A stretch of 64,000 nt of DNA from Candidatus Parcubacteria bacterium (lineage in GTDB: Bacteria; Patescibacteriota; Minisyncoccia; Minisyncoccales; JAGMDC01). The notes under the pieces were generated by a model. That model had not been told where the DNA came from. It made no database searches and saw only the letters and a list, made by a program, of their open reading frames with translations. Positions 5,877 through 57,035 of this stretch are shown piece after piece (the stretch's first letter is position 1; each line of letters opens with the position of its first letter). The stretch covers positions 22,933 to 86,932 of the forward strand of contig JAGMAD010000005.1 of the NCBI GenBank assembly GCA_023130975.1. Direction: 5' to 3'. The translations under genes were made by a program, and so were the position numbers.

Positions 5877-7712
5877 TTAACTCAAAACTTTCAAGTAGAC
5901 ATCAGAAGGGATTTTAATTTTGCCTCTTTCCTTGAGTTTTTTCTTTCCCTTTTTCTGTTTTTCTAAGAGTTTTCTTTTTCTGGTATAGTCACCGCCGTAA
6001 AGAGGAGCAATAACGTCCTTGCCTCTTGCTCTAACTGTTTCCCGGGCAATAATTTTTCCATCAACAACAGCTTGAAGAGCAACGCTAAATTGTTGAGGAG
6101 GCAGAACTTCTTTTATTTTCTTTAAAAACTTCCTGGCTTCTGAATATGCCTTATTTCTGGGAACAATTTTAGAAAATACTTCTTCTTTTTTTTCAGCTAT
6201 CAATGTCTCTATTTTCTTTAAATCAGATTTTTGATATCCTAAAATTTCGTAATTCATAGAGGCATAACCCTGAGAAGCTGACATAAGCTTATCGTAAAAG
6301 CCAGTAATAATTTCTCTTAAAGGACAATAATGTATTAAAAGTAATTTATTTGGTCCCAGATATTCAGTCCCAATATATTTTGTTTCAAATTCATCCAACA
6401 CTTTCATTACTTTGCCTAAATAATCCGAGAGGGTAATAATTTCTAATTTAACATAGGGTTCTTGAATCTTTTTGCCTTCACCCTGCTTGCTTTTTGAGCC
6501 AGCGTAAAGGGAACCCGGCCAGTCAGCTGATGAATAAATTAAAGTTTCTTTATTATTTTCATCAATAATTTTATAAACTACTGAAGGCGAAAAAACTATT
6601 AATTCTAAATCAAACTCTCTGCGAAGACGCTCTACAGCAATTTCTAAATGTAAAGAGCCAAGAAACCCGCAGCGAAATCCTTGTCCAAAAATTTCTTTAT
6701 GCTCTGGCTCAAAATATAAAGAAGCATCATTTAGTTTTAATTTACTTAAAGATTCTTTCAATAAACCGTACTTTTTAGAATTTTCCGGATAAATACTTAC
6801 AAAAACAACCGGCTTCGGCTCCTTATAACCCGGCAAGGCCTCAATATCAACAACTTTTAACTTTTCACTTTTAACTTTTAACTTGGTTATGGTGTCTCCA
6901 ACTCGAACTTTGCCTGGTTCTTTAATGCCAGTAGCGATATAACCGATTTCACCAGCAGACAAAACATCTTTTGGTAAAAATTCTGGTTTAAAATAACCCA
7001 GCTCTTTTATTTTTGCTTCGGTTTCAGAAGCCATCAAGTATATTTCTTTATTAGTTTCTATCTGACCATCTACAACCCGAACATAAGCAATAACCCCTTT
7101 ATAGGCATCGTATTTGGAATCAAAAATCAAAGCCCGAAATGGCTTTTCTTTTTTTTCTATAGGCAAAGGCACCTTCTCTATTACTTTCTCTAAAACCTTC
7201 TCAACATTGGTGCCCTTTTTAGCTGAAATAGATAAAATATCCTGTTCTGAAATATCCAGAATTTTCGCTAATTCTTTTTTTGTTTCTTCAATTTTGGCCG
7301 TGGCTGGAAGCAAATCAATTTTGTTAATTACTGGAATAATGACCAAATCTTGTTTTTTAGCCAATTCTAAATTAGCTAAGGTCTGGGCTTGAATTCCCTT
7401 AATAACATCTACCAACAAAATTGCTCCCTCTACAGCTGCTAAAGAACGAGAAACTTCGTAAGAAAAATCCACATGGCCAGGAGTATCAATTAGATTCAGA
7501 ATGAATCCTTTATACTCCATTCGGCAAGGTTGAAGTTTGATGGTAATTCCTTTTTCTCTTTCTAAGTCCATCATATCTAAAAACTGCTCCTTCATTTTTT
7601 CTTCAGGAACAGCATTAGTTAGTTCTAAAAACCTATCAGCTAAAGTAGATTTACCGTGATCTACGTGCGAAATAATTACAAAATTGCGAATCTGTTTTTT
7701 TATTGTTTCCAT
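5877..7712 (-). CDS. lepA: Elongation factor 4 (LepA)
   Basis: METIKKQIRNFVIISHVDHGKSTLADRFLE...DTPGHVDF...NKIDL show the GTPase motifs. The product is 611 aa from the ATG at 7712. The ORF-track start at 7835 would overlap murJ by 136 nt and is rejected. Confidence 0.93.
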   Translation of the reverse strand: METIKKQIRNFVIISHVDHGKSTLADRFLELTNAVPEEKMKEQFLDMMDLEREKGITIKLQPCRMEYKGFILNLIDTPGHVDFSYEVSRSLAAVEGAILLVDVIKGIQAQTLANLELAKKQDLVIIPVINKIDLLPATAKIEETKKELAKILDISEQDILSISAKKGTNVEKVLEKVIEKVPLPIEKKEKPFRALIFDSKYDAYKGVIAYVRVVDGQIETNKEIYLMASETEAKIKELGYFKPEFLPKDVLSAGEIGYIATGIKEPGKVRVGDTITKLKVKSEKLKVVDIEALPGYKEPKPVVFVSIYPENSKKYGLLKESLSKLKLNDASLYFEPEHKEIFGQGFRCGFLGSLHLEIAVERLRREFDLELIVFSPSVVYKIIDENNKETLIYSSADWPGSLYAGSKSKQGEGKKIQEPYVKLEIITLSDYLGKVMKVLDEFETKYIGTEYLGPNKLLLIHYCPLREIITGFYDKLMSASQGYASMNYEILGYQKSDLKKIETLIAEKKEEVFSKIVPRNKAYSEARKFLKKIKEVLPPQQFSVALQAVVDGKIIARETVRARGKDVIAPLYGGDYTRKRKLLEKQKKGKKKLKERGKIKIPSDVYLKVLS

Positions 7713-12390: not shown

Positions 12391-13512
12391 TTACTTTCCC
12401 GAGCATATTGCTTCTATTCCTACCAACTTTTCATCAACTAAATAATCAAGCATTGCGCCGCCGCCAGTGGAAACAAAACTAAATTTTTTAATTAAACCAA
12501 CCCTGGTTAAAAACTCAATCGTCTCCCCTCCTCCAACTACTGAAAAAGCTTTACCTTTAACAACAGCTTTGGCAATCTCTCTTGTAGCTTTAGAAAATCT
12601 CTTTTCTTCAGTTTTTCCCAATGGACCATTCCAAAAAATGGTTTTTGCTTTTTTAATTTTTTCAATAAATATTTTTATTGTTTTTTCTCCAATATCACCG
12701 CTATCCACCCAGTCCACAGGAAGAATAATTTTTTCTGGATATTTAAATTTTACATTCTGCCATTCTATTTCTTTAGGTATCAGGCCGCCAATTAAAACAT
12801 AATCAGTTGTTTCAGAAAGTTTGTTAATCAATTTTACTTTTGTTTTTACTTTGGCGCCGCCAATTATTGCTATTAAAGGTTTTTTTGGCTTAAACATTAA
12901 TTGTTTCAATGTCTCTATTTCTTTTTCTACTGAAAAACCAATACCTGAAGGCAAAAACTTTGGCAGACCAGTAATTGAGGCATGGGAACGATGGCAAACA
13001 GCAAAAGCATCATTAATATAAACCCCGCACCTTTTGTCGGCTAACTTTCTTAATTTAGGTGCTGAAGGTACCTTGCTGACAAAAGGTGCGGGGTAAATAT
13101 CGCCTGTTAATTTTGCCAAGTCCTTCGCAAATTTTTCATTATTTTCTTTCTCCCCTTTGTAAAATCTTAAATTCTCCAAAACAACAATATCTCCTGATTC
13201 CATTTTTTCTATTTCCTTTTCAACCTTATCGCCAATACAATCCGAAAAAAACCTAACTTTTTTATTTAATAATTCTCCTAATCTATTGGCAATTGGTCTT
13301 AAGCTAAACTTTTCTTCTCTTTTTTCCGGCCTGCCGAGATGACTAATTATAATAATCTTAGCTTGATTTTTTGCCAAATATTCAATGCTGGGAATAGCTG
13401 CTTTAATCCGAAAATCATCTAAAATATCCCCTTGTTTTGACAAAGGGACATTAAAATCAGTTCTTAATAAAACTCTTTTTCCTTGAAAATCAAAATCTTT
13501 TAATGTCTTCAT
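12391..13512 (-). CDS. pgk: Phosphoglycerate kinase, carrying a 25-codon element-derived insertion
   Basis: KRVLLRTDFNVP, IIISHLGRP, INDAFAVCHRSHAS, GGAKVKTK and STGGGAMLDYL. The ATG overlaps the stop of the upstream ATPase gene (ATGA). Confidence 0.93.
   Translation of the reverse strand: MKTLKDFDFQGKRVLLRTDFNVPLSKQGDILDDFRIKAAIPSIEYLAKNQAKIIIISHLGRPEKREEKFSLRPIANRLGELLNKKVRFFSDCIGDKVEKEIEKMESGDIVVLENLRFYKGEKENNEKFAKDLAKLTGDIYPAPFVSKVPSAPKLRKLADKRCGVYINDAFAVCHRSHASITGLPKFLPSGIGFSVEKEIETLKQLMFKPKKPLIAIIGGAKVKTKVKLINKLSETTDYVLIGGLIPKEIEWQNVKFKYPEKIILPVDWVDSGDIGEKTIKIFIEKIKKAKTIFWNGPLGKTEEKRFSKATREIAKAVVKGKAFSVVGGGETIEFLTRVGLIKKFSFVSTGGGAMLDYLVDEKLVGIEAICSGK
13023..13093. mobile_element. 71-nt palindromic MITE-like element inserted in frame in pgk
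   Basis: Perfect 16-bp terminal inverted repeats CCCCGCACCTTTTGTC (13023-13038) and GACAAAAGGTGCGGGG (13078-13093). TAAA flanks lie at 13019-13022 and 13094-13097. The total of 75 nt equals 25 codons. Confidence 0.75.
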
Positions 13513-15101
13513 TTTTCGTCTTCTTCTTTTTTCAGGGACTCTTCTAAAACTTCTTTTAATTCTTTAGTATTGATTTCTTTTCTTTCGGGCTTTTCTCTTT
13601 TTTCTTGAACTTTTCTATGAGGAGAGAAAAAAATAGGTTCTTTTTCCACTGCTTCATTCAAGGACATACTCGGTTCTTTTTTATCTTCTGTTTTAGTTAT
13701 TTTTTCAAGGCAGGACTTGCAATAAACAGGCCTTACTCCATCCGGCTTAAAAGGAACTTTTATCAACCTACCGCATTCCTGGCATTGAGCATCATAAAGA
13801 ACTGGCAAGGGCCTGACTGGTTCAGCTTCTTTTATTGGTTCTGACCACTGGCTAATTTTTTCTTCAACGATTTTTCTTTCTGTACCGTATTTGGCCCGCG
13901 ATTTTTCAATAATCTCTTCTCTGTTTGAATCTTCTGGCTTTGATGCAGGCAACAGGGTTTCAGCAGAAAATGGCCTGCTGGCTACACCGTCAATCATTAG
14001 CTTTAGATAGATGTTATATTTGGCTAAATTAACTAAATCAGAGGCAAAAAATTCTGGCATAAATTCTCTTTCTAAAAATTGGGCGTCCTCTGCTCCTATT
14101 CGAAAAGAAGCAATAGTGCCTACGTTGCCAAAAACAGCATCTCTGACTGTTTCTTCCATTTGAGCAATATATTGATGAGCCAGAATTAAGGACAAGCGGT
14201 ATTTTCTGGCTTCAGATAAGATATTGACAAAGGACTCGGTGGCAAAGTTTTGAAATTCGTCTACATAAAGGAAAAAATCATTTCTTTTCTCTTCCGGCAT
14301 ATCCACTCTGGACATTGCTGCTAACTGTATTCTGGTAATTAAAAGGGCGCCCAACAAGCGAGAAGCATCCTCCCCTATTCTCCCTTTAGACAAGTTCAAT
14401 ATTAAAATCTTTCCTTTATCCATCACCTCTCTCATATCAATAGATGATTCAACCTGGCCAATAATGTTTCTAATTAAGGGCGCGGAAATAAACTGGCCAA
14501 TTTTGTTTTGAATAGCTGCTGTGGCCTCTATCTCATATCTTTGGGTATACCTGGCAAATTCTTGAACCCAAAATGCTTTTACTACCGGGTCAGTTACTTT
14601 CTCTATCACCTCTTTGCGGTAATCAGTATCAGCCAGCATTCGATTGATGCCCAAAAGAGTGGAACCAGGATATTCTAAAAGAGCTAAAATACAGTTATTT
14701 AAAATATATTCCATTCTGGCTGACCAAACATCAGGCCAAATCTTTTTAAAGACACCCATTAAGCCGCCAGCCACTAAATGCCGTTTTTCAAGAGCTACTT
14801 CTTCCATAATATTAAAAGCAATGGGATAATCTAAGTCAGCGGGATTGAAATAAACAACATCTTTAATTCTATCCTTGGGCACAAAATCAAGAAGATTTTC
14901 TGCTGCCTCGCCATGAGGGTCAACAAAACCTATTCCCTTACCGTCTCTGACGTCTTGGATAGCCATATTCTCCAGCATAGCTGTTTTGCCCATACCAGTT
15001 TTTCCAACTACATAAAGATGCCGACGTCTATCATCGGTCTTGATGCCAAATTTTTTTCTGATATTACGAAAGTTTGTTTCTCCGAAAAAATTAATGTCCA
15101 T
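13509..15101 (-). CDS. VirD4/TraD-like (type IV coupling protein family) P-loop ATPase with a C-terminal CxxC...CxxC zinc ribbon
   Basis: Walker A VVGKTGMGKTAML, Walker B FFLYVDEFQNF, AHQYIAQM, and the C-terminus CQECGRLIKVPFKPDGVRPVYCKSC. I chose the ATG at 15101 because the ORF-track start at 15110 is TTG. Confidence 0.7.
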   Translation of the reverse strand: MDINFFGETNFRNIRKKFGIKTDDRRRHLYVVGKTGMGKTAMLENMAIQDVRDGKGIGFVDPHGEAAENLLDFVPKDRIKDVVYFNPADLDYPIAFNIMEEVALEKRHLVAGGLMGVFKKIWPDVWSARMEYILNNCILALLEYPGSTLLGINRMLADTDYRKEVIEKVTDPVVKAFWVQEFARYTQRYEIEATAAIQNKIGQFISAPLIRNIIGQVESSIDMREVMDKGKILILNLSKGRIGEDASRLLGALLITRIQLAAMSRVDMPEEKRNDFFLYVDEFQNFATESFVNILSEARKYRLSLILAHQYIAQMEETVRDAVFGNVGTIASFRIGAEDAQFLEREFMPEFFASDLVNLAKYNIYLKLMIDGVASRPFSAETLLPASKPEDSNREEIIEKSRAKYGTERKIVEEKISQWSEPIKEAEPVRPLPVLYDAQCQECGRLIKVPFKPDGVRPVYCKSCLEKITKTEDKKEPSMSLNEAVEKEPIFFSPHRKVQEKREKPERKEINTKELKEVLEESLKKEEDEK

Positions 15102-15380
15102 AATTATCAACGAATAACGAATCAGTTACGAATTTACGAATTAATTGAGCGAGGCAAATAATTTTTGGGATATTAAAGCGAGGGGAATAATTTTTGGGAC
15201 AATCCGCAGCGAATTGGCTTGGTCCCCCTCCTTTTCGCGCTTGCGCAAAAGGAGGGGGCAATTCGCGAGTAGCAGTAAATTTCCGCTGGAGAAATTTGCG
15301 TGTACCAAAAGTTACTCCCTGAGCGAAATTCCTAAAAATCACTCTCTAAGCGGTATTCTCAAAAGTTATACTTCCGAGCG
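15102..15380. repeat. 279-nt repeat- and hairpin-rich spacer inside an otherwise tightly packed operon
   Basis: Four ATTCGT hexamers lie next to the ATG. CCCAAAAATTATT occurs twice. A 35-nt GC hairpin CCCCCTCCTTTTCGCGC-TT-GCGCAAAAGGAGGGGG spans 15224-15258. There are three degenerate units of about 27 nt, CGCT(C/T)NG(A/G)(A/G)AGT..TTTT.G. Confidence 0.6.
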
Positions 15381-24658: not shown

Positions 24659-27190
24659 TTATCCATATTTAGGATAACAACATTTTTTATATTTTTTGCC
24701 GCTACCGCAGGGGCAAGGATCGTTCCGGCCTGGTTTGTTTTTACGAGCCCCGTCTTCATAACGAGGCCCGACCTCGTTATGAGATGGCACAGAAGTAGAT
24801 GGCTGGCTGAATGCCGGTGCTGAAACTGTTGCTTTTTCTTCTGGTTTAACCAAACTAACCCGGAAAAGAGTATCAACAATATTGGTCTCAATCATATTAA
24901 GAAGCTGGCGAAACATTTTATGGCCTTCATTTTTGTATTCTACTAATGGATCCTGCTGTCCATAAGCGCGTAAGCGAACAGAATCTCTTAAATACTCCAT
25001 ATTTTCCAAATGGTCCATCCAAAGGAAATCCAAACTCCGCAAACTAATAATTTTTTCCACTTTTCTCATATTCTCTTCGCCTATTTCTTTTTCTTTTTTC
25101 TCATAATCTTGCTCTGTCTTCCCCTGTTTCTTAACCATTTCTATAATTTTGGCTTTTCGCTCCTCGCTTTTCGCTTCTAAGATTTCTCTTCGCTTTTTAT
25201 AGATTACTTCCCTGTGTTTGTTTAAAACATCATCATAGTCCAATAAATGTTTTCTCAAATCAAAATTCATTCCTTCAATTTTCTCCTGCGCTGATTCAAT
25301 CACTCCTGAAACCATTTTAGCTTCAATTGCCTGGTCCTCTGGAATTTTCAGCATTTCCATCATTTTCTGGATTCTTTCACCGCCGAAAATTCTTAATAAA
25401 TCGTCTGCCAAAGAAACAAAGAATTGAGAAGAACCAGGATCGCCCTGCCTGCCAGACCGGCCCCGCAATTGATTGTCAATTCTTCTGGCTTCATGCCTTT
25501 CTGTACCGATAACGGAAAGCCCTTTGCTTTTAACAACTTTTTCTGCTTCTTCTTTATTAGGAGGATTGCCGCCTAAAATTATATCCACTCCCCTGCCAGC
25601 CATATTAGTAGCAATAGTCACTGCCTTATATCTGCCTGCCTGAGCAATAATTTCTCCTTCTTTCTGGTGATGCTTGGCATTTAAAATCTGATGAGGAACT
25701 CCTTCTCGATCTAACAGCTTTCCTAAATATTCATTTTTCTCAATAGAAGTAGTGCCAACCAAAACCGGCTGTCCTTTTTGATGCCTTTCTTTAATCTCTG
25801 CCACCACTGCCTTAAATTTTCCGCTTTCTGTTTTGTAAATTCTATCTGGCAATACCTCGCGAATCATTGGCTTGTTTGTCGGTATTATCACCACCTCTAA
25901 ACCATAAACCTTGTCAAATTCTTCTGCTGAAGTGGCAGCTGTTCCAGTCATCCCAGCTAATTTATCGTAAAGCCGAAAGTAATTCTGAAAAGTAATTGAA
26001 GCTAATGTTTTTGATTCTGGCTGAACTGCTACCCCTTCTTTTGCCTCAATGGCTTGATGAAGACCCCCGGAATAGCGCCTGCCAGGCAAAAGCCGTCCAG
26101 TGAAATCATCAACAATAATAACTTGACCATCCTTTACCACATAGTCCCTATCTTTCTTGAAAAGAGCTTGGGCGCGGAGAGATTGCTCTAAGTGATGTAA
26201 ATATTTTATGCCTTTTTCCTGATAAATATTATCCATACCTAAGATTTTCTCTATTTTTTCAATGCCCGGCTCAGTTAAGGTAACAGCTTTCATCTTTTCA
26301 TCAATTTCATAATCAGATTCCTTTTTTAATTGAGGAATAATTTTGGCAAACTCTCCATACGCTTTCGTTGCTTCCATATCCGGAGCAGAAATAATCAAAG
26401 GGGTTCTGGCCTCGTCAATTAAAATTGAGTCAACTTCATCAACAATCGCAAAATTAAATTCACGCTGAGCTTTATCTTTTAAGTCATAAACCATATTATC
26501 CCTTAAATAATCAAAACCGAATTCATTGTTAGTGCCATAAGTAATATTCGCTTGGTATGCCTCTTTTCTTGAACAAGGCCTTAAATAACTTTCAATAACT
26601 TTAAATCCGCCCAAAGTGTCTCTTTCTTCATCTCTTTCACTATTAGATTCTTGATTCTTGATTCTTGATTCTTGATTTTTTTCTTGAAATTCTGGATCAT
26701 AAATACAGGCTGTATCATGCACTAGACAACCAACTGACAAGCCGAGCAAGTGATAAATCTGTCCCATCCAAACTGTGTCTCTTTTAGCTAAATAATCATT
26801 AACTGTTACTACATGAACACCCTTATCTGTTAAAGCATTTAAATAAATTGGCATAGTAGATGCCAATGTTTTTCCTTCACCGGTTTTCATTTCTCCAATT
26901 CTTCCTTGGTGCAATATAATACCGCCGATTAATTGAACATCAAAATGCCTTTGGTTTAAAGTCCTTTTTGCTGCTTCTCTTGTTAAAGCAAATGCTTTTG
27001 GTAATATATCATCAAGCGTCTTACCCTTTTTTAATTCTTCTTTGAGTTTTTCTGATTCTAAACGAAGCTTTTCATCAGAAAAACCCTCGAACTCTTGTTC
27101 GAGGTTATTTATCTGCTCAACGATTGGCTGAATTTTCTTTAAATACTTCTCGTTAGCATCGCCAAAAAGTTTAGACAAAACCTTCATCAT
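24659..27190 (-). CDS. secA: Preprotein translocase ATPase SecA
   Basis: 843 aa with [44 protein letters not shown] and the C-terminal zinc motif [13 protein letters not shown]. Confidence 0.95.
26646..26680. repeat. Heptanucleotide microsatellite (GATTCTT)4 plus a partial unit, inside secA
   Basis: Four perfect tandem units span 26646-26673. Translated on the minus strand they give [12 protein letters not shown]. Confidence 0.85.
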
Positions 27191-27228
27191 ATCTAATTTG
27201 ATTTTAACAAATTTTTATAAAAAAACAA

Positions 27229-27296
27229 CCCCGCACCTTTTCTAGACAGCTTTGAATTTTTGAAGCCTTTGGCTTCTGTCCAGAAAAGGTGCGGGG
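27229..27296. mobile_element. 68-nt palindromic element copy forming a 23-bp stem with a T-run upstream of secA
   Basis: AACCCCGCACCTTTTCTAGACAG ... CTGTCCAGAAAAGGTGCGGGGTT. The terminal 13 nt CCCCGCACCTTTT are identical to the pgk copy. On the minus strand it is followed by GTTTTTTTTAT. Confidence 0.7.
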
Positions 27297-27312
27297 TTGG
27301 AGAAGAAATTTA

Positions 27313-27339
27313 CTTCTTTTTCTTCTTTTTCTTCTTTTT
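27313..27339. repeat. (CTTCTTTTT)3 perfect 9-nt tandem repeat
   Basis: Three exact copies. On the minus strand the repeat sits inside the ATG-GCA-(AAG/AAA)10-TAA micro-ORF at 27310-27348. Confidence 0.85.
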
Positions 27340-27519
27340 CTTTGCCATTTTATTTAATTATTTCAGAAAGCACATATTTTATGCTTTCAGAAATAACTAT
27401 CTTACATTAAGGCAAATATTCGACTTCTTATTTGCCCGTCCGCCAAAATTTTTTAAAAATTAGGCGGGCAAAAATTTTAAAGAAAATTCATTACTTTATT
27501 TTTTCATTTTAAAAAAGTT

Positions 27520-27534
27520 TGTCAATGTGGATAA
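27520..27534 (-). promoter_or_regulatory. TTATCCACA directly abutting a TTGACA -35 hexamer
   Basis: The minus strand reads agTTATCCACATTGACAaactttttt. The -10 box is unclear (AAAAAT). Confidence 0.35.
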
Positions 27535-27544
27535 CTGTAATTAA

Positions 27545-27620
27545 AAATTTTCAATTATCAATTTTCAATTTTCATTAAATTTTCAATTCTTTAATTTTCA
27601 ATAATTAGAAATTAGAAATT
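27545..27620. repeat. Degenerate TTTTCAA-rich tract downstream of murB
   Basis: ATTTTCAATTATCAATTTTCAATTTTCATTAAATTTTCAATTCTTTAATTTTCAAT. This is the reverse complement of the TTGAAAA heptamer repeated inside murB. Confidence 0.5.
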
Positions 27621-27621
27621 T

Positions 27622-28581
27622 CTATTGTAGATATTTTATCTCTTCTTTCAGTTTAATTCCGAATTTTTCTTTTACTTTTCCTTTTGCTAAATTTATTAAT
27701 TTCAAAACATCTTTTGCCTTGGCATCACCTAAATTGACAATGAAATTAGCATGCTTTTCAGAAATCTGGGCTTTGCCAGCCTTCTTTCCTTTTAGTCCGC
27801 ATTTCTCAATCAGCCAACCAGCAGGATGTTTCTTGGGGTTTTGGAATATTGAGCCAGCTGAAGGAAAATTTAAGGGTTGATTGTCTTTTCGCCATTTTAG
27901 ATTCTCTCTTACTCTTTTTTTGATTTCTTCTTTATCTCCTTTTTTTAATTCAATTTCTGCTGAAAGAATTATCAAGTTCTTGTTGTGTTTAAAAATACTA
28001 TCCCTGTATTTAAACTTACAATCTTTTTTCTTCAAAATTCTGGTTTGGAATTTGGAGTTTGGAATTTGGGATTTGTTTGGGATTTGGGATTTGGGATTTG
28101 GGATTTCCAAAACCGTTACGGTTTTGGTTATATCTTTCATTGACTGTTCAAAAGCGCTAGCATTCCCTCTAATAGCACCACCAACTGTTATTCCCGGAAT
28201 TCCTACTGCCCATTCCATACCAATTAATCCATTTTTTGTCGCTTCTAAAACTAACAAAGATAGAGGTGCCCCTGCTCCAACATTAATTTTTGTAATTTGA
28301 GATTTGGGATTTGATTGAAAATTGAAAATTGAAAATTGAAAATTTATAACTAGTCCCTGGTATCCCTCATCTGCCACAAGAACATTGCTTCCACCACCTA
28401 AAACAAAAAAAGACAGCTTTAATTCATTTGCTGTCTTAATAGCTTTGATTAAATCATCTTTATTTTTTGCTGTATAAAAATATTTTGCCGGGCCGCCAAT
28501 CTTAAAGGTTGTATAATTTTTCAATAAAATGTTTTTCTTAAACTTTTTAAAAATTTTAGATTTTGATTTGTCATTTTGCAT
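27622..28581 (-). CDS. murB: UDP-N-acetylenolpyruvoylglucosamine reductase MurB
   Basis: NYTTFKIGGPAKYF, FVLGGGSNVLV, GIPGTVGGAIRGNA and GSIFQNP. Two heptamer-repeat tracts interrupt it in frame. Confidence 0.88.
   Translation of the reverse strand: MQNDKSKSKIFKKFKKNILLKNYTTFKIGGPAKYFYTAKNKDDLIKAIKTANELKLSFFVLGGGSNVLVADEGYQGLVINFQFSIFNFQSNPKSQITKINVGAGAPLSLLVLEATKNGLIGMEWAVGIPGITVGGAIRGNASAFEQSMKDITKTVTVLEIPNPKSQIPNKSQIPNSKFQTRILKKKDCKFKYRDSIFKHNKNLIILSAEIELKKGDKEEIKKRVRENLKWRKDNQPLNFPSAGSIFQNPKKHPAGWLIEKCGLKGKKAGKAQISEKHANFIVNLGDAKAKDVLKLINLAKGKVKEKFGIKLKEEIKYLQ
28042..28108. repeat. Heptanucleotide array (GATTTGG-type, about 9 units, imperfect) inside murB
   Basis: GGTTTGG AATTTGG AGTTTGG AATTTGG GATTTGT TTGG GATTTGG GATTTGG GATTTGG GATTTCC. 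It encodes EIPNPKSQIPNKSQIPNSKFQT. Confidence 0.85.
28295..28343. repeat. Heptanucleotide array (ATTTGNG x3, then TGAAAAT x4) inside murB
   Basis: ATTTGAG ATTTGGG ATTTGAT TGAAAAT TGAAAAT TGAAAAT TGAAAAT. It encodes NFQFSIFNFQSNPKSQI. Confidence 0.85.
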
Positions 28582-28759
28582 TTTGATTTTTAATTTTTGA
28601 TTTTTTTAAAATGGCCGGGAGAGTTGACTCCAATTCTAAGTCTTTAGTGAGTGCTGCCTCCCGACCTTTTTTATTGTAGCAAATTTTTAAAAAATATGCT
28701 ACCATAAGAACATGGCAAGGCCATAACCTTGATTTCTTGCTTCGCTCGAAATTTAAAAA

Positions 28760-30529
28760 ATGACCATGAACTCAAAGATAAAAATTATTTTTTTCATAGC
28801 TATACTATTCTTTCTTTACCTGCCTTTTTCTGCTTCAGCTGTTTTTTTAGGCGAGAAACAGTCCTTTTTTGTTGATTCTTCTTATGACTCATCTGAAAGA
28901 GAAGAAATATCTGCCCTCCTTCAAAGAATAGGAAAAGAAATCTATTTTTTTATTGACAACGACTACTGGGATTCTTTAAATCTTGAGGAAAAAAATAAAA
29001 CAAGACAATCTCTTCAAGATTTAGATAATGAATTTCACGGCAAAATATATCCAACCTTAACTTCTTTTTACGGCTCTGAATGGAAACCGGGAATTGATAA
29101 AGACAGCCGTCTGACAGTTCTAATTCATCCAATGATTGAAGAAGCCGGAGGATATTTTAGGAGCGCTGACGAATATGAAAAAATACAAGTTCCTAACTCA
29201 AATGAAAAAGAAATGGTTTATCTCAACTCTCTTTATATTAACCAACCAGGGTCTAAAAACTTGCTGGCTCATGAATTCACTCATTTAATCACTTTTTATC
29301 AAAAGAATGTAAAACAAGAAATAGAAGAAGAAATATGGCTCAACGAAGCCAGGGCAGAATATGCTCCTACTTTACTCGGTTATGATGATATCTATGAAAA
29401 CAGTAATCTTGAAAATAGGGTCAAAATCTTCTTAGCCAACCCGACTGACTCCGTTACCGAATGGCAGAACGCTCTTTCTGATTACGGAGTTCTTAATCTT
29501 TTTACCCAATATTTAGTTGAACAATATGGAATAGAAATTTTGACAGATTCAATGAGAACAGAAAAAAAAGGGATTAACAGCTTAAATTATGCTTTAAAGA
29601 AAAACGGGTATGAAGAAAACTTTACTGATGTCTTTACTAATTGGACGATTACTGTTTTAGTTAACGATTGTGATTTAGGAAAAGAATACTGTTATCAAAA
29701 TGAGAATTTAAAAAATTTGAAAATAACTCCTTCTTTTAATTTTCTGCCCCTAATAGGCAAAAGTAGTTTAGGAGTCAGCCAGACAACTAAAAACTGGGCC
29801 GGCAATTGGTATAAATTTATCGGCGGAGAAGGAAATCTGAAAATAAGTTTTTTGGGCGATCCTGAAAGTTTATTTAAAATACCTTGCATTACCAAAAATT
29901 CCTCTGGAAAATACGAGATTGACTTTTTTCAATTAGATGAAAATCAAAGGGGAGAAATTTTTGTTTCAGATTTTGGAAAAGAAATTACTTCTGTTGTTAT
30001 TATTCCCTCTATTCAAAGCAAAATGTCTGGATTTTTAAATCCAGAACCAAGTTTCCCATTTTTCTGGGAGGCCTCTGCTACTGCTGTTGAAGAAAAGGAA
30101 AAAGAAGAAAAGCCAAACTTTTTGGAAAAGCCGATTTCGGAAATGACCAAACAAGAAATTATTTTCAAAATTGAAGAGATTCAGAATATCTTAAATCAGC
30201 TTCAAGCCCAGCTTACTGAATTAAACAAAGAAAATGTTGAAGAGAACCAAGAAAATCTTAGCTGCCAAAGATTTGAAGAAAATCTCTCTTATGGATTATT
30301 AAATGATGAGAGGGTTCGCTGCCTTCAAGAATTTTTGAAATCAGAAGGAAAAGCAATTTATCCAGAAGGACTAGTCACCGGGAATTTTTTTAAATTAACT
30401 AAAGCGGCTGTAATTCACTTCCAAGAAAAATACCAAGAGGAAATTTTAGCACCCTGGGGATTAGAAAAAGGAACTGGTTTTGTCGGTTCTCTAACCAGAA
30501 AAAAAATCAACCAGCTCTTAAACAGCTAA
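28760..30529 (+). CDS. Secreted zinc metallopeptidase-like protein with a C-terminal coiled coil and a peptidoglycan-binding-like domain
   Basis: Signal peptide IIFFIAILFFLYLPFSASA. HExxH motif LLAHEFTHL with a downstream NEARAEY. The C-terminus is homologous to the N-terminal anchor of the 1248-aa protein. Confidence 0.6.
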   Translation: MTMNSKIKIIFFIAILFFLYLPFSASAVFLGEKQSFFVDSSYDSSEREEISALLQRIGKEIYFFIDNDYWDSLNLEEKNKTRQSLQDLDNEFHGKIYPTLTSFYGSEWKPGIDKDSRLTVLIHPMIEEAGGYFRSADEYEKIQVPNSNEKEMVYLNSLYINQPGSKNLLAHEFTHLITFYQKNVKQEIEEEIWLNEARAEYAPTLLGYDDIYENSNLENRVKIFLANPTDSVTEWQNALSDYGVLNLFTQYLVEQYGIEILTDSMRTEKKGINSLNYALKKNGYEENFTDVFTNWTITVLVNDCDLGKEYCYQNENLKNLKITPSFNFLPLIGKSSLGVSQTTKNWAGNWYKFIGGEGNLKISFLGDPESLFKIPCITKNSSGKYEIDFFQLDENQRGEIFVSDFGKEITSVVIIPSIQSKMSGFLNPEPSFPFFWEASATAVEEKEKEEKPNFLEKPISEMTKQEIIFKIEEIQNILNQLQAQLTELNKENVEENQENLSCQRFEENLSYGLLNDERVRCLQEFLKSEGKAIYPEGLVTGNFFKLTKAAVIHFQEKYQEEILAPWGLEKGTGFVGSLTRKKINQLLNS

Positions 30530-53627: not shown

Positions 53628-53646
53628 TTAGCTTAGTTAGCTTGCT
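53628..53646. repeat. 19-bp direct repeat copy 1 (TTAGCTTAGTTAGCTTGCT) at the 3' end of the epimerase gene
   Basis: Identical to 54612-54630. It overlaps the epimerase stop codon region. Confidence 0.8.
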
Positions 53647-54587
53647 AACTTATTCCTGAACCACTCCACTGTCTCTTTCAATCCCCTATCTAAATTATAT
53701 TTCGGCTGACAGCCAAGCTCTTTTTTTGCTTTTTTAAAATCTAAACAGCTTCTTTTCTGCTCACCAGGTTTTTCAGGAATATGAATCTCTTTACAATTTA
53801 AATCAGCCAACTTTCTAATTTTTCTAAAAATAGTATTAATACTGGTTTCATTTGCTGTCCCAATATTAAAAACCCCGATTTTGTTTTTCTTCAAAGCCAA
53901 TATATTCGCTTCAACCACATCATTAATATAAACAAAATCCCGGGTTTGTTTTCCATCACCGTTTATTGTTGTTTCTTTACTATTTAGCATTTTATCGCAG
54001 AAAATGGCAATTACTCCTGCCTCTCCTTTTGAATTTTGTCTGGGTCCATAAACATTTGACAAACGCAAAGATACATAAGACAGACCAAAAACTTTATAAT
54101 AATAATTTAAGTATTTATCAAAAACCAATTTTTCAATCCCATATGGCGAAACAGGCATTTCAGGATATGTTTCTGGAGTAGGAATAATATCAGCGTCGCC
54201 ATAAATGGCACCGCCAGTAGAAGCAAAGATTATTTTAGAAGCGAATCTATGCGAACGATTAGGCGAAAGAACGCGAATAAAATTCTGAATTATATTTAAA
54301 GAACCGAGAATATTAATTTTGGCATCTTCAATTGGATCCTCAACTGATTTTCTTAAATCAATTTGAGCCGCTAAATGAAAAACTGTTTCTGGTTTTTCTT
54401 TTTTAAAAACATCGGAAATTTTAGGACTCCTGATGTCCAATTTATAAAATTTGGCTTTAGGATTCAAGTTTTTTTTAGTTCCGGTAGATAAATTATCAAT
54501 CACCACCACTTTATGATTTTCTTTGATTAATCTATCTACTAAATGACTTCCGATAAAACCAGCTCCCCCAGTGACTAATATCTTCAT
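53637..54587 (-). CDS. NAD-dependent NDP-sugar epimerase (GalE-like extended SDR)
   Basis: MKILVTGGAGFIGSHLVDRL, and SPYGIEK (the YxxxK motif). Confidence 0.88.
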   Translation of the reverse strand: MKILVTGGAGFIGSHLVDRLIKENHKVVVIDNLSTGTKKNLNPKAKFYKLDIRSPKISDVFKKEKPETVFHLAAQIDLRKSVEDPIEDAKINILGSLNIIQNFIRVLSPNRSHRFASKIIFASTGGAIYGDADIIPTPETYPEMPVSPYGIEKLVFDKYLNYYYKVFGLSYVSLRLSNVYGPRQNSKGEAGVIAIFCDKMLNSKETTINGDGKQTRDFVYINDVVEANILALKKNKIGVFNIGTANETSINTIFRKIRKLADLNCKEIHIPEKPGEQKRSCLDFKKAKKELGCQPKYNLDRGLKETVEWFRNKLAS

Positions 54588-54589
54588 AC

Positions 54590-54629
54590 TTAGTTAGCTT
54601 AGTTAGCTTAGTTAGCTTAGTTAGCTTGC
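54590..54629. repeat. (TTAGTTAGC)4 perfect 9-nt tandem repeat plus TTGC, in a divergent promoter region
   Basis: The units are 54590-98, 54599-607, 54608-16 and 54617-25. It starts 3 nt from the epimerase ATG and is followed by TTATAAT and the plus-strand Wzy_C gene. Confidence 0.9.
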
Positions 54630-54662: not shown

Positions 54663-57035
54663 ATGGAAAACAATATCGTTGAAAATAAAATAAAATGGGT
54701 TTATCTTCTGGGCTTTTTTTTAATTTTGGCCTTACCGCTTTTGAATCTACCGCCCTGGTTCTCGCCGCCTGACTGGGGGAAAACCATTGTTTTTAGGATT
54801 ATTCTATCTCTAATGATTTTTGTTTTTCTATGGCAAGTCCTTTTCCAGAAATTAAATGATAATTTATCATTGATCATTAAAAATATATTAAATAAGCAAA
54901 GTAAGGTTTTTTTAAGTTTCTGGCTCTTGATTGCTTTCTTAGGAGTTTACTTCTTGGCTACCCTATTTTCTCAAGACCCATATTTCAGCTTTTGGGGATC
55001 TCCTTACCGTGCCGGTGGATTTCTTAATTTCGCTTTCTGTATAATTTTTGCTATTTTAGCTTTTTTAATTCTCCGAAAATCTGACTGGCAAAAAATCTGG
55101 GATTTTAGTATAATTATTGGAATTTTTGTCTCATTTATTGCTATCTTTCAGCAACTCGGTCTTTTTAGTAAGGTAGTTATTCCTTTTTCCGGTAGAGCGC
55201 CTTCTACTATCGGCGGACCAATATTTTTGGCAATTTATCTTTTGCTTTTATTTTTTCCTATCTTATTTTTTGGTATTAGAGAAAAAAATCTTGTTAAGAA
55301 GTTTTTTTATTTTTTTGCTCTTTTATTATTTTTTTATGTTATCTTAAATACTGGAAGCCGAGCCGCTTATTTTGGATTATTAATTGGAATCTTTTATTTT
55401 GTTCTTTTCTACCCTGTTAAATTCCACTTTGCGGCACCCAGCCTTTTACAGAAAGGCGGGGTATTTAACAGGGTGGACCCCCACACCAAAAAGCTTTTTT
55501 TAGTCAAAATCTTTTTTGGAATCCTTTTGGTTTTAGGAATTTTGGGAGTTTATTATTTGAATGCTGATTACCAAGTCCCTCAATCTTTTCAAGAAAACAA
55601 GATTTTTAAAACAGTCAATTCAAGATTATCTATCAGTTTAGCCATAAAAGATCCTCGTTTCTCCAGTTGGGAAATTGCTTTCAGGGCAATGAAAAAAAAA
55701 CCGATTTTGGGTTATGGGCCGGAAAATTTTTCAATTGGTTTTGATAAGCATTATGACCCTTCTTTGCCATACATTGATCCGGATTGGGGCAGTTGGTATG
55801 ACCGTGCCCATAATTTTATTTTTGATATTGGGGTTACTGTAGGAATTTTAGGTCTGATTATTTACCTTTCCCTTTTTGCAGTTTTATTCTCTGGATTACA
55901 AAAACTAAAAAAAATTAAACCAGAAAAAATAATAATATATCATGGAATTCAAGCTGCTTTCTTAGCTTATTTGGCAGCTAATTTCTTTAGTTTTGATACT
56001 TTTTCAACCTACTTAATATCGTTTTTAATAATTGCTTATAGTTTAACTTTAATAAATCAATCAGAAAAAAAGCAAAATGAAATCATTAAACCAAAAATTA
56101 GAAGTGTCCAAAAACTCACGATCGTGAAAATTTGGACACTTTTAAAAAAATATAAAAAAGCAATTATTGTTATTTTATTTTTATTCTTAATCTGGTTTAT
56201 CTGGGCTTGTAATATCAAACCTTTTTGGATTAACAAAGAAATCCGTTCTACTAAAACTCAATCTCAAATTGGGAATTATCAACAAGGCCTGAAACAATTA
56301 GAAAGCGTCTTGGATTCTCACACTTATTTAGACAGTTATTTAAGATTAAATTATGTTGAGCTTATTAGCCAAAACCTAGAAAAAACTCCGCCGGCTTTTC
56401 AGGGAATTTTAGTGGAAAAAGCAATCAATGCTTTAAAGGAAAATACTGAAATCAGACCTTATTATACCAGAAACTGGTTATTGCTGGGAAATTATACCAA
56501 TGTTTTGATTGAGAAAGGAAAAAAAAACCTAAGAGGAGAAGCATATTACTATTTTGAAAAAGCTCTTCAATTAAGCCCTAAGCACTTAGAAATTTTCATT
56601 GGTCTGGCAAAAACCGATTTATTAACCAATGATTATTTAGGAGCAAAAAATAATGCCCAAAAATGCATCAATTTAAATTCAAAAGTTGGAGAATGCTGGT
56701 GGTTAATGGCTATAACTAATATCTATTTGAATAACATTGAAGAAGCCCAGGGAAACATAGAAGCAGCAAGAAAAGCAATATATCCTGTTGGCTCAAAATC
56801 CTCTACTGCTCAACTTATAAATGCCTATAATTACATCAAAAACTATGAAGAAATAGTTAAAATTTATCAAACATTAATTTTGCAAGAACCAAACAATGCT
56901 CAATATCATTTCTCCTTAGCAGTTTATTATAAAGAACTGGGTAATAATGAAAAAGCAAAAAAAGAAGCTCTAAGGGCTTTAGAGCTAATGCCAGAAGCAA
57001 AGAAACAAATAGAAGAGTTTTTAAAAACTCTTTAA
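54663..57035 (+). CDS. O-antigen-ligase-like (Wzy_C domain) polytopic membrane protein fused to C-terminal TPR repeats
   Basis: NTGSRAAYFGLLIG and YDRAHNFIFDIGVTVGILGL show the Wzy_C pattern. The C-terminal ~250 aa has TPR-like repeats (YYFEKALQLSP, AVYYKELGNNEKAKKEALRALEL). Confidence 0.75.
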   Translation: MENNIVENKIKWVYLLGFFLILALPLLNLPPWFSPPDWGKTIVFRIILSLMIFVFLWQVLFQKLNDNLSLIIKNILNKQSKVFLSFWLLIAFLGVYFLATLFSQDPYFSFWGSPYRAGGFLNFAFCIIFAILAFLILRKSDWQKIWDFSIIIGIFVSFIAIFQQLGLFSKVVIPFSGRAPSTIGGPIFLAIYLLLLFFPILFFGIREKNLVKKFFYFFALLLFFYVILNTGSRAAYFGLLIGIFYFVLFYPVKFHFAAPSLLQKGGVFNRVDPHTKKLFLVKIFFGILLVLGILGVYYLNADYQVPQSFQENKIFKTVNSRLSISLAIKDPRFSSWEIAFRAMKKKPILGYGPENFSIGFDKHYDPSLPYIDPDWGSWYDRAHNFIFDIGVTVGILGLIIYLSLFAVLFSGLQKLKKIKPEKIIIYHGIQAAFLAYLAANFFSFDTFSTYLISFLIIAYSLTLINQSEKKQNEIIKPKIRSVQKLTIVKIWTLLKKYKKAIIVILFLFLIWFIWACNIKPFWINKEIRSTKTQSQIGNYQQGLKQLESVLDSHTYLDSYLRLNYVELISQNLEKTPPAFQGILVEKAINALKENTEIRPYYTRNWLLLGNYTNVLIEKGKKNLRGEAYYYFEKALQLSPKHLEIFIGLAKTDLLTNDYLGAKNNAQKCINLNSKVGECWWLMAITNIYLNNIEEAQGNIEAARKAIYPVGSKSSTAQLINAYNYIKNYEEIVKIYQTLILQEPNNAQYHFSLAVYYKELGNNEKAKKEALRALELMPEAKKQIEEFLKTL
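55411..55474. repeat. 64-nt nested palindrome in frame inside the Wzy_C gene
   Basis: The outer 12-bp inverted repeat is ACCCTGTTAAAT and ATTTAACAGGGT. The inner one is GCCTTTT/GAAAGGC. It is followed by CCCCCACACCAAA, which is identical to the recJ element terminus. Confidence 0.6.

What the first reader, a model, noticed from the sequence alone, without database searches (positions are those of the whole stretch)
26646..26680. A different heptamer repeat, (GATTCTT)4, inside secA within a lineage-specific insertion
Four perfect GATTCTT units plus a partial unit are translated as [12 protein letters not shown]. They lie inside a segment of about 40 aa ([42 protein letters not shown]). That segment precedes the conserved [21 protein letters not shown] region, where from memory E. 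coli and B. subtilis SecA have no such insert.

This is the same 7-nt periodicity as in murB but with a different unit. It suggests a general mechanism in this genome that generates heptamer arrays, including in essential genes.
Basis: partly seen in the sequence, partly recalled or inferred. Interest (0 to 1): 0.55.

Follow-up and report, generated by a model that had tools for sequence, protein, structure and literature searches.

The report
In-frame seven-base repeat in SecA
A perfect 4.6-copy, 7-base repeat sits in frame in a floppy surface loop of the essential secA gene of a Parcubacteria bacterium. It is one case of a tendency, seen across this group, to build short 7-base arrays inside genes that are read in all three frames and change length in 21-base steps.

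Summary
Window 26646..26677 is a perfect (GATTCTT)x4.57 array on the antisense strand of secA (24659..27190, minus strand). On the coding strand it reads (AAGAATC)n and is translated [12 protein letters not shown]. Chance cannot produce it: the lag-7 self-match run is 25 nt, against at most 14 nt in shuffles.

The ~43-aa insert is not lineage-specific. Its flanks are conserved in every Parcubacteria SecA examined, and Thermotoga maritima SecA has an insert at the same NBD1 position. Only the ~11-residue heptamer-coded core is specific to this species. The closest relatives carry a decayed array, no array, or an (AAATCCC)3 array at the same nucleotide.

In 1.37 Mb from 80 related genomes plus the window, period 7 is the dominant tandem-repeat class, mostly inside genes, at recurrent sites and with different units. 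Arrays have a preferred size of 4–5 units, no stop codon in any frame, and 21-nt length steps.

The most likely cause is locally seeded misalignment in a 7-nt register during replication or repair, filtered by selection, in a disordered loop. The kind is known (heptanucleotide simple sequence repeats), but the coding-region behaviour is a new variant. Interest is moderate.

The parts
26646..26677 (-). Perfect heptamer array. The coding strand reads (AAGAATC)n in 4.57 copies and encodes SecA residues N172-S182 ([11 protein letters not shown]); three units make 21 nt, or KNQESRI.
26591..26719 (-). NBD1 insert of SecA (residues 158-200, 43 aa) relative to M. tuberculosis, B. subtilis and E. coli SecA. 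Its flanks are conserved across Parcubacteria, and T. maritima SecA has an insert at the same position.
24659..27190 (-). secA, 843 aa, with all SecA domains including the C-terminal SEC-C zinc motif.
25147..25176 (-). Second, imperfect heptamer array in secA (coding strand GCGAAAA x ~4.3, encoding AKSEERKAK) just after the conserved KKRREILE. This is another recurrent heptamer site in relatives; L006 has a perfect AAAAGTC x 4.6 there.
28314..28344 (-). murB heptamer array at the 'GLVI' site (coding strand TTTCAAT x 4.4, encoding NFQFSIFNFQ).
28044..28106 (-). murB heptamer array at the 'TVLEI' site (coding strand TCCCAAA, about 9 units of which 4.4 are perfect, encoding IPNPKSQIPNKSQIPN).
28553..28605 (-). 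Imperfect heptamer array (coding strand CAAAAAT x ~7.9) spanning the murB start codon.
27546..27620 (-). Heptamer arrays (gene-direction GAAAATT x ~8, then TCTAATT x 2.6) in the intergenic DNA just downstream of the murB stop codon.
6852..6884 (-). Heptamer array (plus strand AACTTTT x 4.7, 92% matches) inside lepA/EF4, encoding KLKVKSEKLKV.

Best explanation
The array is a heptanucleotide simple-sequence repeat that arose recently and locally. The ancestral E-N-Q codons (GAA AAT CAA) were amplified by out-of-register (7-nt offset) realignment of the nascent strand during replication or repair. This happened within an already existing, structurally tolerant loop of SecA NBD1. Because 7 is not a multiple of 3, the array is read in all three frames and yields a 7-aa peptide repeat (KNQESRI). 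Selection then acts as a filter in three ways. First, only units with no stop codon in any cyclic frame survive, which fixes the orientation and explains the conserved C at each T-to-A junction. Second, only net length changes that are multiples of 3 nt survive, so in practice 3 units, or 21 nt. Third, only sites that tolerate the peptide survive. The encoded peptide is most likely a neutral, disordered K/N/Q/E/S spacer with no function of its own. Arrays then decay by point mutation, and new ones arise beside them, so this loop is hypervariable across Parcubacteria.

Shown: the repeat, its frame, its recent and local origin, its recurrence at the same nucleotide in relatives, the 21-nt steps, the stop-codon filter, and the low model confidence (predicted coil) for the loop. 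Inferred: polymerase or repair misalignment as the generator, and neutrality of the peptide.
For: (1) Real and non-random.

(2) Local and recent origin. DNA flanks align cleanly between the window, L001 (90% aa identity), L083 (85%) and L002 (84%). The interior differs completely: (AAGAATC)4.6 in the window, a decayed array in L001, a short non-repetitive stretch in L083, and (AAATCCC)3 in L002. In the window, L001 and L002 the interior starts at the same nucleotide and heptamer phase, after the conserved GAA|AAAT.

(3) 21-nt quantum. L084 carries exactly 21 extra nt (AAAAATC AAAATTC AAAGATC), seeded from the local GAAATCAAAAAT, compared with L085 and L086. The second SecA site (after KKRREILE) has length classes of 55 and 62 aa. 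A 7-aa difference is the commonest length difference among SecA pairs with similar flanks (the pairs are not independent).

(4) A period-specific, unit-agnostic process. In 1.37 Mb (80 loci plus the window), perfect arrays of >=3 copies number 27 for period 7, against 1, 7, 4, 1 and 4 for periods 4, 5, 6, 8 and 9. The 27 arrays use 21 different canonical units. With TRF, period 7 is the largest class at score >=50 (32 arrays) and occurs in 35 of 81 sources.

(5) Stop-codon filter. All 23 in-ORF units lack stops in every cyclic frame, as they must to lie inside an ORF. 14 of the 23 would carry a stop in the opposite orientation, including GATTCTT (GAT TCT TGA). 3 of 4 intergenic units have stops on both strands.

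(6) Tolerant site. In the AlphaFold2 model, residues 171-181 ([11 protein letters not shown]) have pLDDT <50 and are mostly coil, between a beta-hairpin (153-164) and a helix that begins at residue 179 (179-193). The sub-insert ranges from about 7 to about 49 aa among relatives.

(7) Background from the literature. Heptanucleotide repeats are reported as the most abundant long SSR class in most prokaryotic genomes, with polymerase slippage proposed as the cause (Mrazek et al. 2007, as summarised in PMC4679880 and PMC4692102).
Against: No copy-number polymorphism was seen. Two strains that differ by 8 SNPs in 7 kb have identical arrays, so ongoing slippage is not demonstrated. Single-unit slips would frameshift an essential gene, and I have no mechanism for building 3 units at once from a 1.3-2-unit seed. 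The preferred size of 4.3-4.9 units also holds for intergenic arrays, so frame selection does not explain it. At the MurB 'GLVI' site and the SecA 'KKRREILE' site, arrays occupy the same number of residues as non-repetitive homologues. That fits homogenisation without length change better than simple expansion. The AlphaFold2 model is only moderate (mean pLDDT 69).
Confidence: 0.62

Rival explanations
1. The arrays are functional nucleic-acid elements. For example, they could be binding sites for a protein that reads heptamer direct repeats (cold-shock-type OB-fold proteins bind one heptamer per monomer), or pausing or structural signals in DNA or mRNA. In this view they are kept at a set size of about 4-5 units and merely tolerated by the proteins they lie in.
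For: The length distribution is bimodal, with a distinct mode at 26-36 nt and a gap at 23-25 nt. This is seen only for period 7. The same 4.3-4.6-unit size holds inside and outside ORFs. Arrays recur at homologous sites in distant lineages. A similar four-unit preference is reported for the Xanthomonas and Nostoc heptamer arrays (PMC4692102). CspB binding to heptamer repeats is noted in PMC4679880.
Against: Units differ at nearly every site and between close relatives at the same site (21 canonical units among 27 arrays). The only shared features (A-rich, with C at the T-to-A junction) follow from AT-richness and stop-codon avoidance. The nearest relatives lack the secA array altogether. No Rfam family or structure is associated with them.
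Confidence: 0.12
2. The array is an old feature kept homogeneous by concerted evolution, because the encoded 7-aa repeat is useful to the protein. It could serve as a structural element or as an interaction or spacer module of SecA.
For: Arrays at the MurB 'GLVI' site encode KIQNSKF, KIQNTKY, KLQATSY, RLQVTGY or KIENCKL, always with hydrophobic residues at positions 2 and 7. They fit a beta-hairpin of constant length. Unit substitutions are present in all copies, which indicates concerted change. At the SecA 'KKRREILE' site the arrays encode heptad-like IENWKLK in a helix.
Against: For the secA NBD1 array in question, the peptide has low model confidence and is mostly predicted as coil. It is absent or different in relatives with 84-90% identical SecA, and sub-insert length varies about sevenfold. 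Selection on a protein would give 21-nt periodicity, not perfect 7-nt periodicity.
Confidence: 0.1
3. It is a contingency (phase-variation) locus: gain or loss of one unit switches SecA on and off.
For: It is a non-triplet SSR inside a coding sequence, which is the classical architecture of phase-variable genes (background in PMC2651432 and PMC11868660).
Against: SecA is essential and single-copy here. The array is short (4.6 units). There was no length difference between two strains or among 6 contigs. The same kind of array sits in murB, lepA, pheT and secD.
Confidence: 0.03
4. It is a chance low-complexity sequence or an assembly or sequencing artefact.
For: The genome is AT-rich (33.5% GC) and comes from a metagenome assembly.
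Against: The lag-7 run of 25 nt compares with a maximum of 14 nt in shuffles. At 32 nt the array is far shorter than a sequencing read. It was assembled identically in independent samples. The ORF stays intact and full length.
Confidence: 0.01

Closest known systems
Long simple sequence repeats with heptanucleotide units in prokaryotes (Mrazek, Guo and Shah 2007, as summarised in PMC4679880 and PMC4692102)
   Same: Head-to-tail 7-nt units. Period 7 is the most abundant long-SSR class. The proposed origin is polymerase slippage in a 7-nt register.
   Different: That survey reported that units whose length is a multiple of three are the ones most often found in coding regions. Here, most period-7 arrays (23 of 27 perfect, 44 of 60 by TRF) lie in frame inside conserved housekeeping genes, at recurrent sites.
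GGGAATC arrays of Xanthomonas and GGGGA(T/C)T arrays of Nostoc (PMC4692102)
   Same: Period 7. A clear preference for about four units. Extensive length and sequence variation between close relatives at the same loci.
   Different: Those are one G-rich unit family dispersed genome-wide. [quoted passage not shown] Here every site has its own A-rich unit, none has G-tracts, and most arrays are in coding DNA.
TAACTGA direct repeats of Beggiatoaceae and cyanobacteria (PMC4679880), and the tandem heptanucleotide repeats reported for the cyanobacterium Calothrix PCC 7601 (cited in PMC4692102; known, from memory, as STRR repeats)
   Same: Tandem heptamers of 2-6 copies. When such an array lies inside an ORF it reads as a 7-aa repeat; LSVISYQ is discussed in PMC4679880.
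   Different: A single conserved unit, mostly upstream of start codons, with a suggested regulatory role and suggested horizontal spread. Only rarely inside ORFs, and then in small hypothetical proteins.
Tandem repeats that create disordered regions in proteins of Borg elements (PMC9879509)
   Same: Fast-evolving, locally seeded perfect tandem repeats inside ORFs that add low-complexity or disordered peptide segments.
   Different: All Borg repeats inside ORFs have unit lengths divisible by three. Here the unit is 7 nt, so each array is read in all three frames and only 3-unit steps keep the frame.
NBD1 insertion of Thermotoga maritima SecA (PDB 3DIN, 3JUX, 4YS0)
   Same: An insert of about 50 aa at the same position, between the ..LGLxVG strand and the [21 protein letters not shown] motif. 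It aligns straight through the query, with similarity at the F.V...L....RKEAY end.
   Different: T. maritima shows no heptamer-coded segment. Similarity in the centre of the insert is negligible.
Phase-variable contingency loci with non-triplet SSRs (for example in Haemophilus influenzae, PMC2651432)
   Same: A non-triplet SSR within a gene.
   Different: Those are long, hypermutable arrays in dispensable surface or virulence genes. This is a short, stable array in essential genes, kept in frame.

Membership tests
Heptanucleotide simple sequence repeat (long SSR) | Head-to-tail copies of one 7-nt unit, longer than expected by chance | tested here: met
   4.57 perfect copies. The lag-7 run is 25 nt, against a maximum of 14 nt in 100 shuffles.
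Heptanucleotide simple sequence repeat (long SSR) | Unit derived from local sequence (amplification in place), not imported | tested here: met
   The array starts in the conserved GAA AAT CAA codons. The flanks align with relatives, and the relatives have other units at the same nucleotide.
Heptanucleotide simple sequence repeat (long SSR) | Copy number varies among related genomes or strains | tested here: inconclusive
   There was no variation between two strains that are 99.9% identical. A clean 21-nt (3-unit) difference exists between species-level relatives at the same site. Read-level data were not available.
Phase-variation contingency locus | Frequent +/-1-unit changes that switch a dispensable gene on and off | tested here: not met
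   The gene is essential. Copy number is identical on 6 contigs from two samples, and the ORF is intact.
Dispersed single-unit heptamer families (Xanthomonas GGGAATC, Nostoc GGGGATT, Beggiatoaceae TAACTGA, cyanobacterial STRR) | The same unit repeated at many loci of one genome | tested here: not met
   Every array in the window has its own unit: AAGAATC, GCGAAAA, TCCCAAA, TTTCAAT, CAAAAAT, GAAAATT and AAAAGTT. There are 21 canonical units among the 27 perfect arrays.
Dispersed single-unit heptamer families (Xanthomonas GGGAATC, Nostoc GGGGATT, Beggiatoaceae TAACTGA, cyanobacterial STRR) | Mainly intergenic location | tested here: not met
   23 of 27 perfect arrays and 44 of 60 TRF arrays lie inside long ORFs.
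SecA NBD1 insertion as in T. maritima | Extra segment at the same position of NBD1 | tested here: met
   The T. maritima chains align in one stretch across the region (query 2-172 to chain 94-271). The M. tuberculosis, B. subtilis and E. coli chains align as two stretches that skip it.
SecA NBD1 insertion as in T. maritima | Sequence homology of the inserted segment itself | tested here: inconclusive
   Only the C-terminal end (F.V..L...RKEAY) is alike, and the centre aligns with gaps and low confidence. Within Parcubacteria the flanks are clearly homologous.
Programmed ribosomal frameshift site (slippery heptamer) | Two overlapping frames that must be joined by a shift at the heptamer | tested here: not met
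   A single uninterrupted 843-aa frame encodes a complete SecA that is colinear with solved structures.

The most novel reading that the evidence does not exclude
Parcubacteria, and perhaps bacteria in general, may have a period-specific but sequence-agnostic DNA process with a 7-nt register and a preferred product size of about 31 nt. In this reading it repeatedly rewrites the same loops, hairpins and helices of essential proteins (SecA, MurB, SecD, PheT, LepA), sometimes without changing their length. That would make heptamer arrays, read in all three frames, a regular source of new protein sequence in these reduced genomes. The four-to-five-unit preference, previously credited to G-quadruplex formation in Xanthomonas and Nostoc, would then be a signature of the replication or repair machinery itself.
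Probability: 0.3. Interest if true: 0.7.

Novelty: new variant of a known kind. Interest (0 to 1): 0.45.

Why it matters
Non-triplet repeats are expected to be purged from essential genes. Here they are the commonest tandem repeat, and most sit inside conserved housekeeping genes. This gives a clean natural system in which a DNA-level process leaves a readable signature in proteins: 7-aa repeats, 21-nt length steps and units free of stop codons. It explains why certain loops of Parcubacteria proteins are hypervariable and why their 'lineage-specific inserts' look alike (KSQIPNP, KIQNSKF, KNQKSKI). It is also a warning for annotation and alignment of genomes from the Candidate Phyla Radiation. 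Finally, the 4-5-unit size preference appears in units that have no G-tracts. That calls into question the G-quadruplex explanation given for the same preference in other bacteria, and it points to a mechanistic constant of replication or repair that could be tested in vitro.

Tried and rejected
- **Same-species alleles with other copy numbers.** A scan of the JGI metagenome collection for the left flank plus the first unit (CCAGAATTTCAAGAAAAAAATCAAGAATC) gave 0 hits. The organism is present only in ENA and NCBI assemblies, where all 6 contigs encode the identical protein.
- **Length-difference statistics.** Among SecA pairs with similar flanks, a 7-aa difference is the commonest (86 of 581 pairs). 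The pairs are not independent, so I use this only as a hint and rely on the explicit 21-nt case.
- **Rfam search of the murB-secA spacer.** Only sub-threshold hits that look like chance matches.
- **Mismatch-repair status.** A literature search on Patescibacteria and mismatch repair returned nothing usable. No MutS or MutL domain turned up among the ten large ORFs of the window that I scanned, which is uninformative for the whole genome.
- **Source paper.** Mrazek et al. 2007 is not held in the library, so it is cited only through two papers that summarise it. Lin and Kussell 2012 does not mention heptamers.
- **Explanations rejected.** Protein-level selection for a heptad or 7-aa repeat would give 21-nt, not 7-nt, DNA periodicity. 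A mobile mini-element or foreign insertion is excluded because the units are seeded from local codons, differ at every site, and I saw no inverted repeats or target duplications in the aligned flanks. I did not consider a diversity-generating retroelement target likely; no template-variable repeat pair came to notice, but I ran no dedicated search for one. Programmed frameshifting is excluded because there is a single intact frame.
Full report
**What is there.** Window 26646..26677 is a perfect tandem array, GATTCTT x 4.57 (TRF; own scan; sequence). It lies antisense to a single 843-aa ORF, 24659..27190 on the minus strand. This ORF has every SecA Pfam domain (SecA_DEAD, PP_bind, P-loop_SecA, SecA_SW, SEC-C). 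It matches solved SecA structures at E ~1e-245 and is 100% identical to a deposited 'Candidatus Parcubacteria' SecA. Its closest relatives are labelled Nealsonbacteria or Minisyncoccales. On the coding strand the unit is AAGAATC. Because 7 is not a multiple of 3, the array is read in all three frames: three units make 21 nt and encode KNQESRI.

**Chance and artefact.** The longest lag-7 self-match run in the window is 25 nt, against a mean of 9.1 and a maximum of 14 in 100 Markov shuffles. The same protein is encoded on 6 contigs from at least two samples. One contig from another sample (L082) differs from the window by 8 SNPs in 7055 nt, with no indel and no difference in any of the secA, murB or intergenic arrays. 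The array is therefore real and, at this shallow depth of divergence, stable.

**The insert is old; only its core is new.** Relative to M. tuberculosis, B. subtilis and E. coli SecA, 43-49 residues are extra, depending on the chain. Against M. tuberculosis SecA1 these are residues 158-200, window 26591..26719. T. maritima SecA (3DIN, 3JUX, 4YS0), however, aligns in one stretch through this region and has its own ~50-aa insert at the same NBD1 position. All 120 best homologues carry the conserved flanks ..YDPxYQxE and ERDxERDxxGGFKVxESYLRPxSRKEAY, and the ERD..GGFKV side is recognisable in most of the 80 genome loci. Between those flanks lies a hypervariable sub-insert of about 7 to 49 aa. So 'lineage-specific insertion' is true only of the ~11-residue heptamer-coded core.

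**Comparison with the closest relatives.** A DNA alignment of the four closest relatives shows well-conserved flanks and a completely different interior. The window has (AAGAATC)4.6. L001 (90% aa identity) has a decayed, weakly periodic stretch. L083 (85%) has a short non-repetitive stretch. L002 (84%) has (AAATCCC)3. Written in heptamer register, the arrays of the window, L002, L032 and L004 all begin at the same nucleotide and phase, in the conserved GAA|AAAT(CAA) codons. The unit is therefore seeded from local sequence. L032 and L042 carry two different arrays side by side, which indicates repeated births at one site.

**Length changes in 21-nt steps.** L084 (P0045 group) has exactly 21 extra nt, AAAAATC AAAATTC AAAGATC, compared with L085 and L086, in an otherwise conserved context (GAAGAAGGAGCGCGTGAAAT..). 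At a second SecA site, after KKRREILE, the length classes are 55 and 62 aa. A 7-aa difference is the commonest length difference among SecA pairs with similar flanks. Those pairs are not independent, so this point is only suggestive.

**A clade-wide, period-specific phenomenon.** I examined 80 related genome loci plus the window (1.37 Mb).
- Perfect arrays of at least 3 copies number 27 for period 7, against 1, 7, 4, 1 and 4 for periods 4, 5, 6, 8 and 9.
- With TRF, period 7 is the largest class at score >=50 (32 arrays). Its multiples 14 and 21 are also raised, and 35 of 81 sources have at least one period-7 array.
- The 27 perfect arrays use 21 different canonical units. This is a process defined by period, not a dispersed sequence family.
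- Hosts include SecA (two sites), MurB (two sites plus the start region), SecD, PheT, LepA and glycosyltransferases, with the same site hit in two genomes.
- 23 of 27 perfect arrays and 44 of 60 TRF arrays lie inside long ORFs, which cover 88% of the bases. Coding DNA is at most mildly depleted.

This contrasts with reports that coding repeats mostly have units divisible by three (Mrazek 2007, via PMC4679880). In Borg elements all repeats inside ORFs have such units (PMC9879509).

**Filters visible in the sequences.** All 23 in-ORF units are free of stop codons in every cyclic frame, as they must be to lie inside an ORF. 14 of the 23 would contain a stop if inverted; GATTCTT, for example, reads GAT TCT TGA. 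3 of 4 intergenic units have stops on both strands. In an AT-rich cyclic heptamer the T-to-A junction must be bridged by C, since TAA, TAG and TGA are otherwise created. This explains the common A(n)..TC shape of the units and the recurring K/N/Q/I/S/F peptides, without invoking a shared motif.

**Structure.** The AlphaFold2 model was built from 67 sequences and has a mean pLDDT of 69. Residues 171-181 ([11 protein letters not shown]) have pLDDT below 50 and are mostly coil, between a beta-hairpin (153-164) and a helix that begins at residue 179 (179-193). This is consistent with a tolerated, probably disordered surface loop.

**Mechanism: best estimate.** I favour locally seeded realignment in a 7-nt register during replication or repair. 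This is the polymerase-slippage idea advanced for the general excess of heptamer SSRs (PMC4679880, PMC4692102). Selection then filters for stop-free units, net 3n length and tolerant sites, and arrays later decay by mutation. The peptide is probably a neutral spacer.

**What this does not explain.**
- Period-7 lengths are bimodal: a chance tail of 14-22 nt, a gap at 23-25 nt, and a second mode at 26-36 nt. The 4.3-4.9-unit size also holds for intergenic arrays, so frame selection is not the cause. The same four-unit preference was ascribed to G-quadruplexes in Xanthomonas and Nostoc (PMC4692102), but the units here have no G-tracts.
- At the MurB 'GLVI' site and the SecA 'KKRREILE' site, arrays occupy the same number of residues as non-repetitive homologues. 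Unit substitutions there are present in all copies (AAAATTC, AAAATAC, AAGCTAC, AGGTTAC). This suggests homogenisation without length change, for example short templated patches copied from 7 nt away.
- I cannot say how three units are added at once.

**Rivals.** The alternatives are a functional nucleic-acid element, a selected peptide repeat kept by concerted evolution, a phase-variation switch, and chance or artefact. Each is weighed in its own section, and none fits the secA NBD1 array as well. Protein-level selection cannot give perfect 7-nt periodicity.

**Verdict.** The 'general heptamer mechanism' idea is supported and extended to the whole clade. The 'lineage-specific insertion' claim is corrected. 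The kind is known (heptanucleotide SSR), but its behaviour is unusual: it sits in coding sequence at recurrent sites, changes length in 21-nt steps and has a fixed preferred size. Interest is moderate.

Noticed in passing
window 27310..27348 (-) and 27219..27300 (-); also L001, L002, L005, L008, L016, L035, L083, L086 upstream of secA: A conserved mini-ORF, ATG GCA (AAR)10 TAA, encoding MAKKKKKKKKKK*, lies 158 nt upstream of the secA start; TRF reports it as a period-9 array. The same MAKKKK[K/A/S/R]KKKK* ORF lies 106-194 nt upstream of secA in 9 species-level loci, with synonymous AAA/AAG differences. About 10 nt after its stop codon begins a long GC-rich hairpin followed by a T-run, which ends ~30 nt before the secA ATG. 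In 5 sequences, 4 of its pairs show compensatory changes. The pyrimidine tract TTTCTTCTCC after the stop codon is complementary to the Lys codons. It looks like a leader-peptide attenuator or a translation-coupled control of secA, or else a separate tiny gene. No Rfam family matches.
   Followed up: partly
window 28314..28344 (-); L002, L006, L013, L014, L016, L018, L019, L020, L028, L042 (MurB): At the MurB 'GLVI' site, heptamer arrays encode KIQNSKF, KIQNTKY, KIENCKL, KLQATSY, RLQVTGY or NFQFSIF, always with hydrophobic residues at positions 2 and 7. The GGGSN-to-GIPG segment stays 69 aa long whether or not it is repetitive. What is probably a beta-hairpin of an essential enzyme is therefore written by a 7-nt repeat without length change, and unit substitutions are shared by all copies, which indicates concerted change.
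   Followed up: partly
window 25147..25176 (-); L006 11984..12015; L038, L078, L041, L033, L022, L015: There is a second recurrent heptamer site in SecA, just after KKRREILE. L006 has a perfect AAAAGTC x 4.6 there. Several relatives encode heptad-like IENWKLKIESW or IRDWKLEIRNW. Length classes of 55 and 62 aa differ by 7 aa.
   Followed up: partly
all 81 sources: Period-7 arrays have a preferred size of 4.3-4.9 units (about 30-34 nt) both inside and outside ORFs. There is a gap at 23-25 nt between them and the chance background. No other period from 4 to 12 shows a comparable second mode. This is unexplained.
   Followed up: partly
window 27546..27620: The 430-nt murB-secA spacer begins, right after the murB stop codon, with about 8 imperfect GAAAATT units and 2.6 TCTAATT units (gene direction). 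Relatives L020, L024 and L028 also have heptamer arrays near murB or just upstream of secA; the L028 array starts right after the murB ORF. A promoter-like TTGACA-16-AAAAAT follows at 27525..27498 (-).
   Followed up: partly
L067 8605..8661 and L069 16647..16676: Two related genomes carry different heptamer arrays (TATCAAA plus AAATTCC in one, TTCAAAT in the other) at the same site of a homologous ORF that looks like a glycosyltransferase (no domain scan run), just before the conserved LLFIGRLEKRKN.
   Followed up: no
L069 7228..9711: An ORF that reads like the phenylalanyl-tRNA synthetase beta subunit (judged from its sequence; no domain scan run) carries a GC-containing heptamer array, ACGAGTC x 3.9 (encoding LRVTSHESRVE). 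It also has a second, decayed AAATCCC-type segment (IPNPKSKIP).
   Followed up: no
window 54589..54627 and 57155..57187: Two perfect period-9 arrays. CTTAGTTAG x 4.3 lies in the 75-nt spacer between ORFs 53637..54587(-) and 54663..57035(+), the latter an O-antigen-ligase/TPR protein. TTCTTCCTC x 3.7 lies inside ORF 57032..58180(-).
   Followed up: no
window 59026..62772 (-) and 28760..30529 (+): Two large ORFs (1248 aa and 589 aa) have no Pfam match at E <= 1e-5. The 589-aa ORF is divergent from murB and has an N-terminal hydrophobic segment.
   Followed up: no
window 13509..15110 (-): This ORF has TrwB/TraG-type coupling-protein domains of type IV secretion and a treble-clef zinc finger. Much of the window from about 31.9 to 57 kb appears to encode polysaccharide and cell-envelope biosynthesis genes, judging from the five ORFs scanned there.
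   Followed up: no
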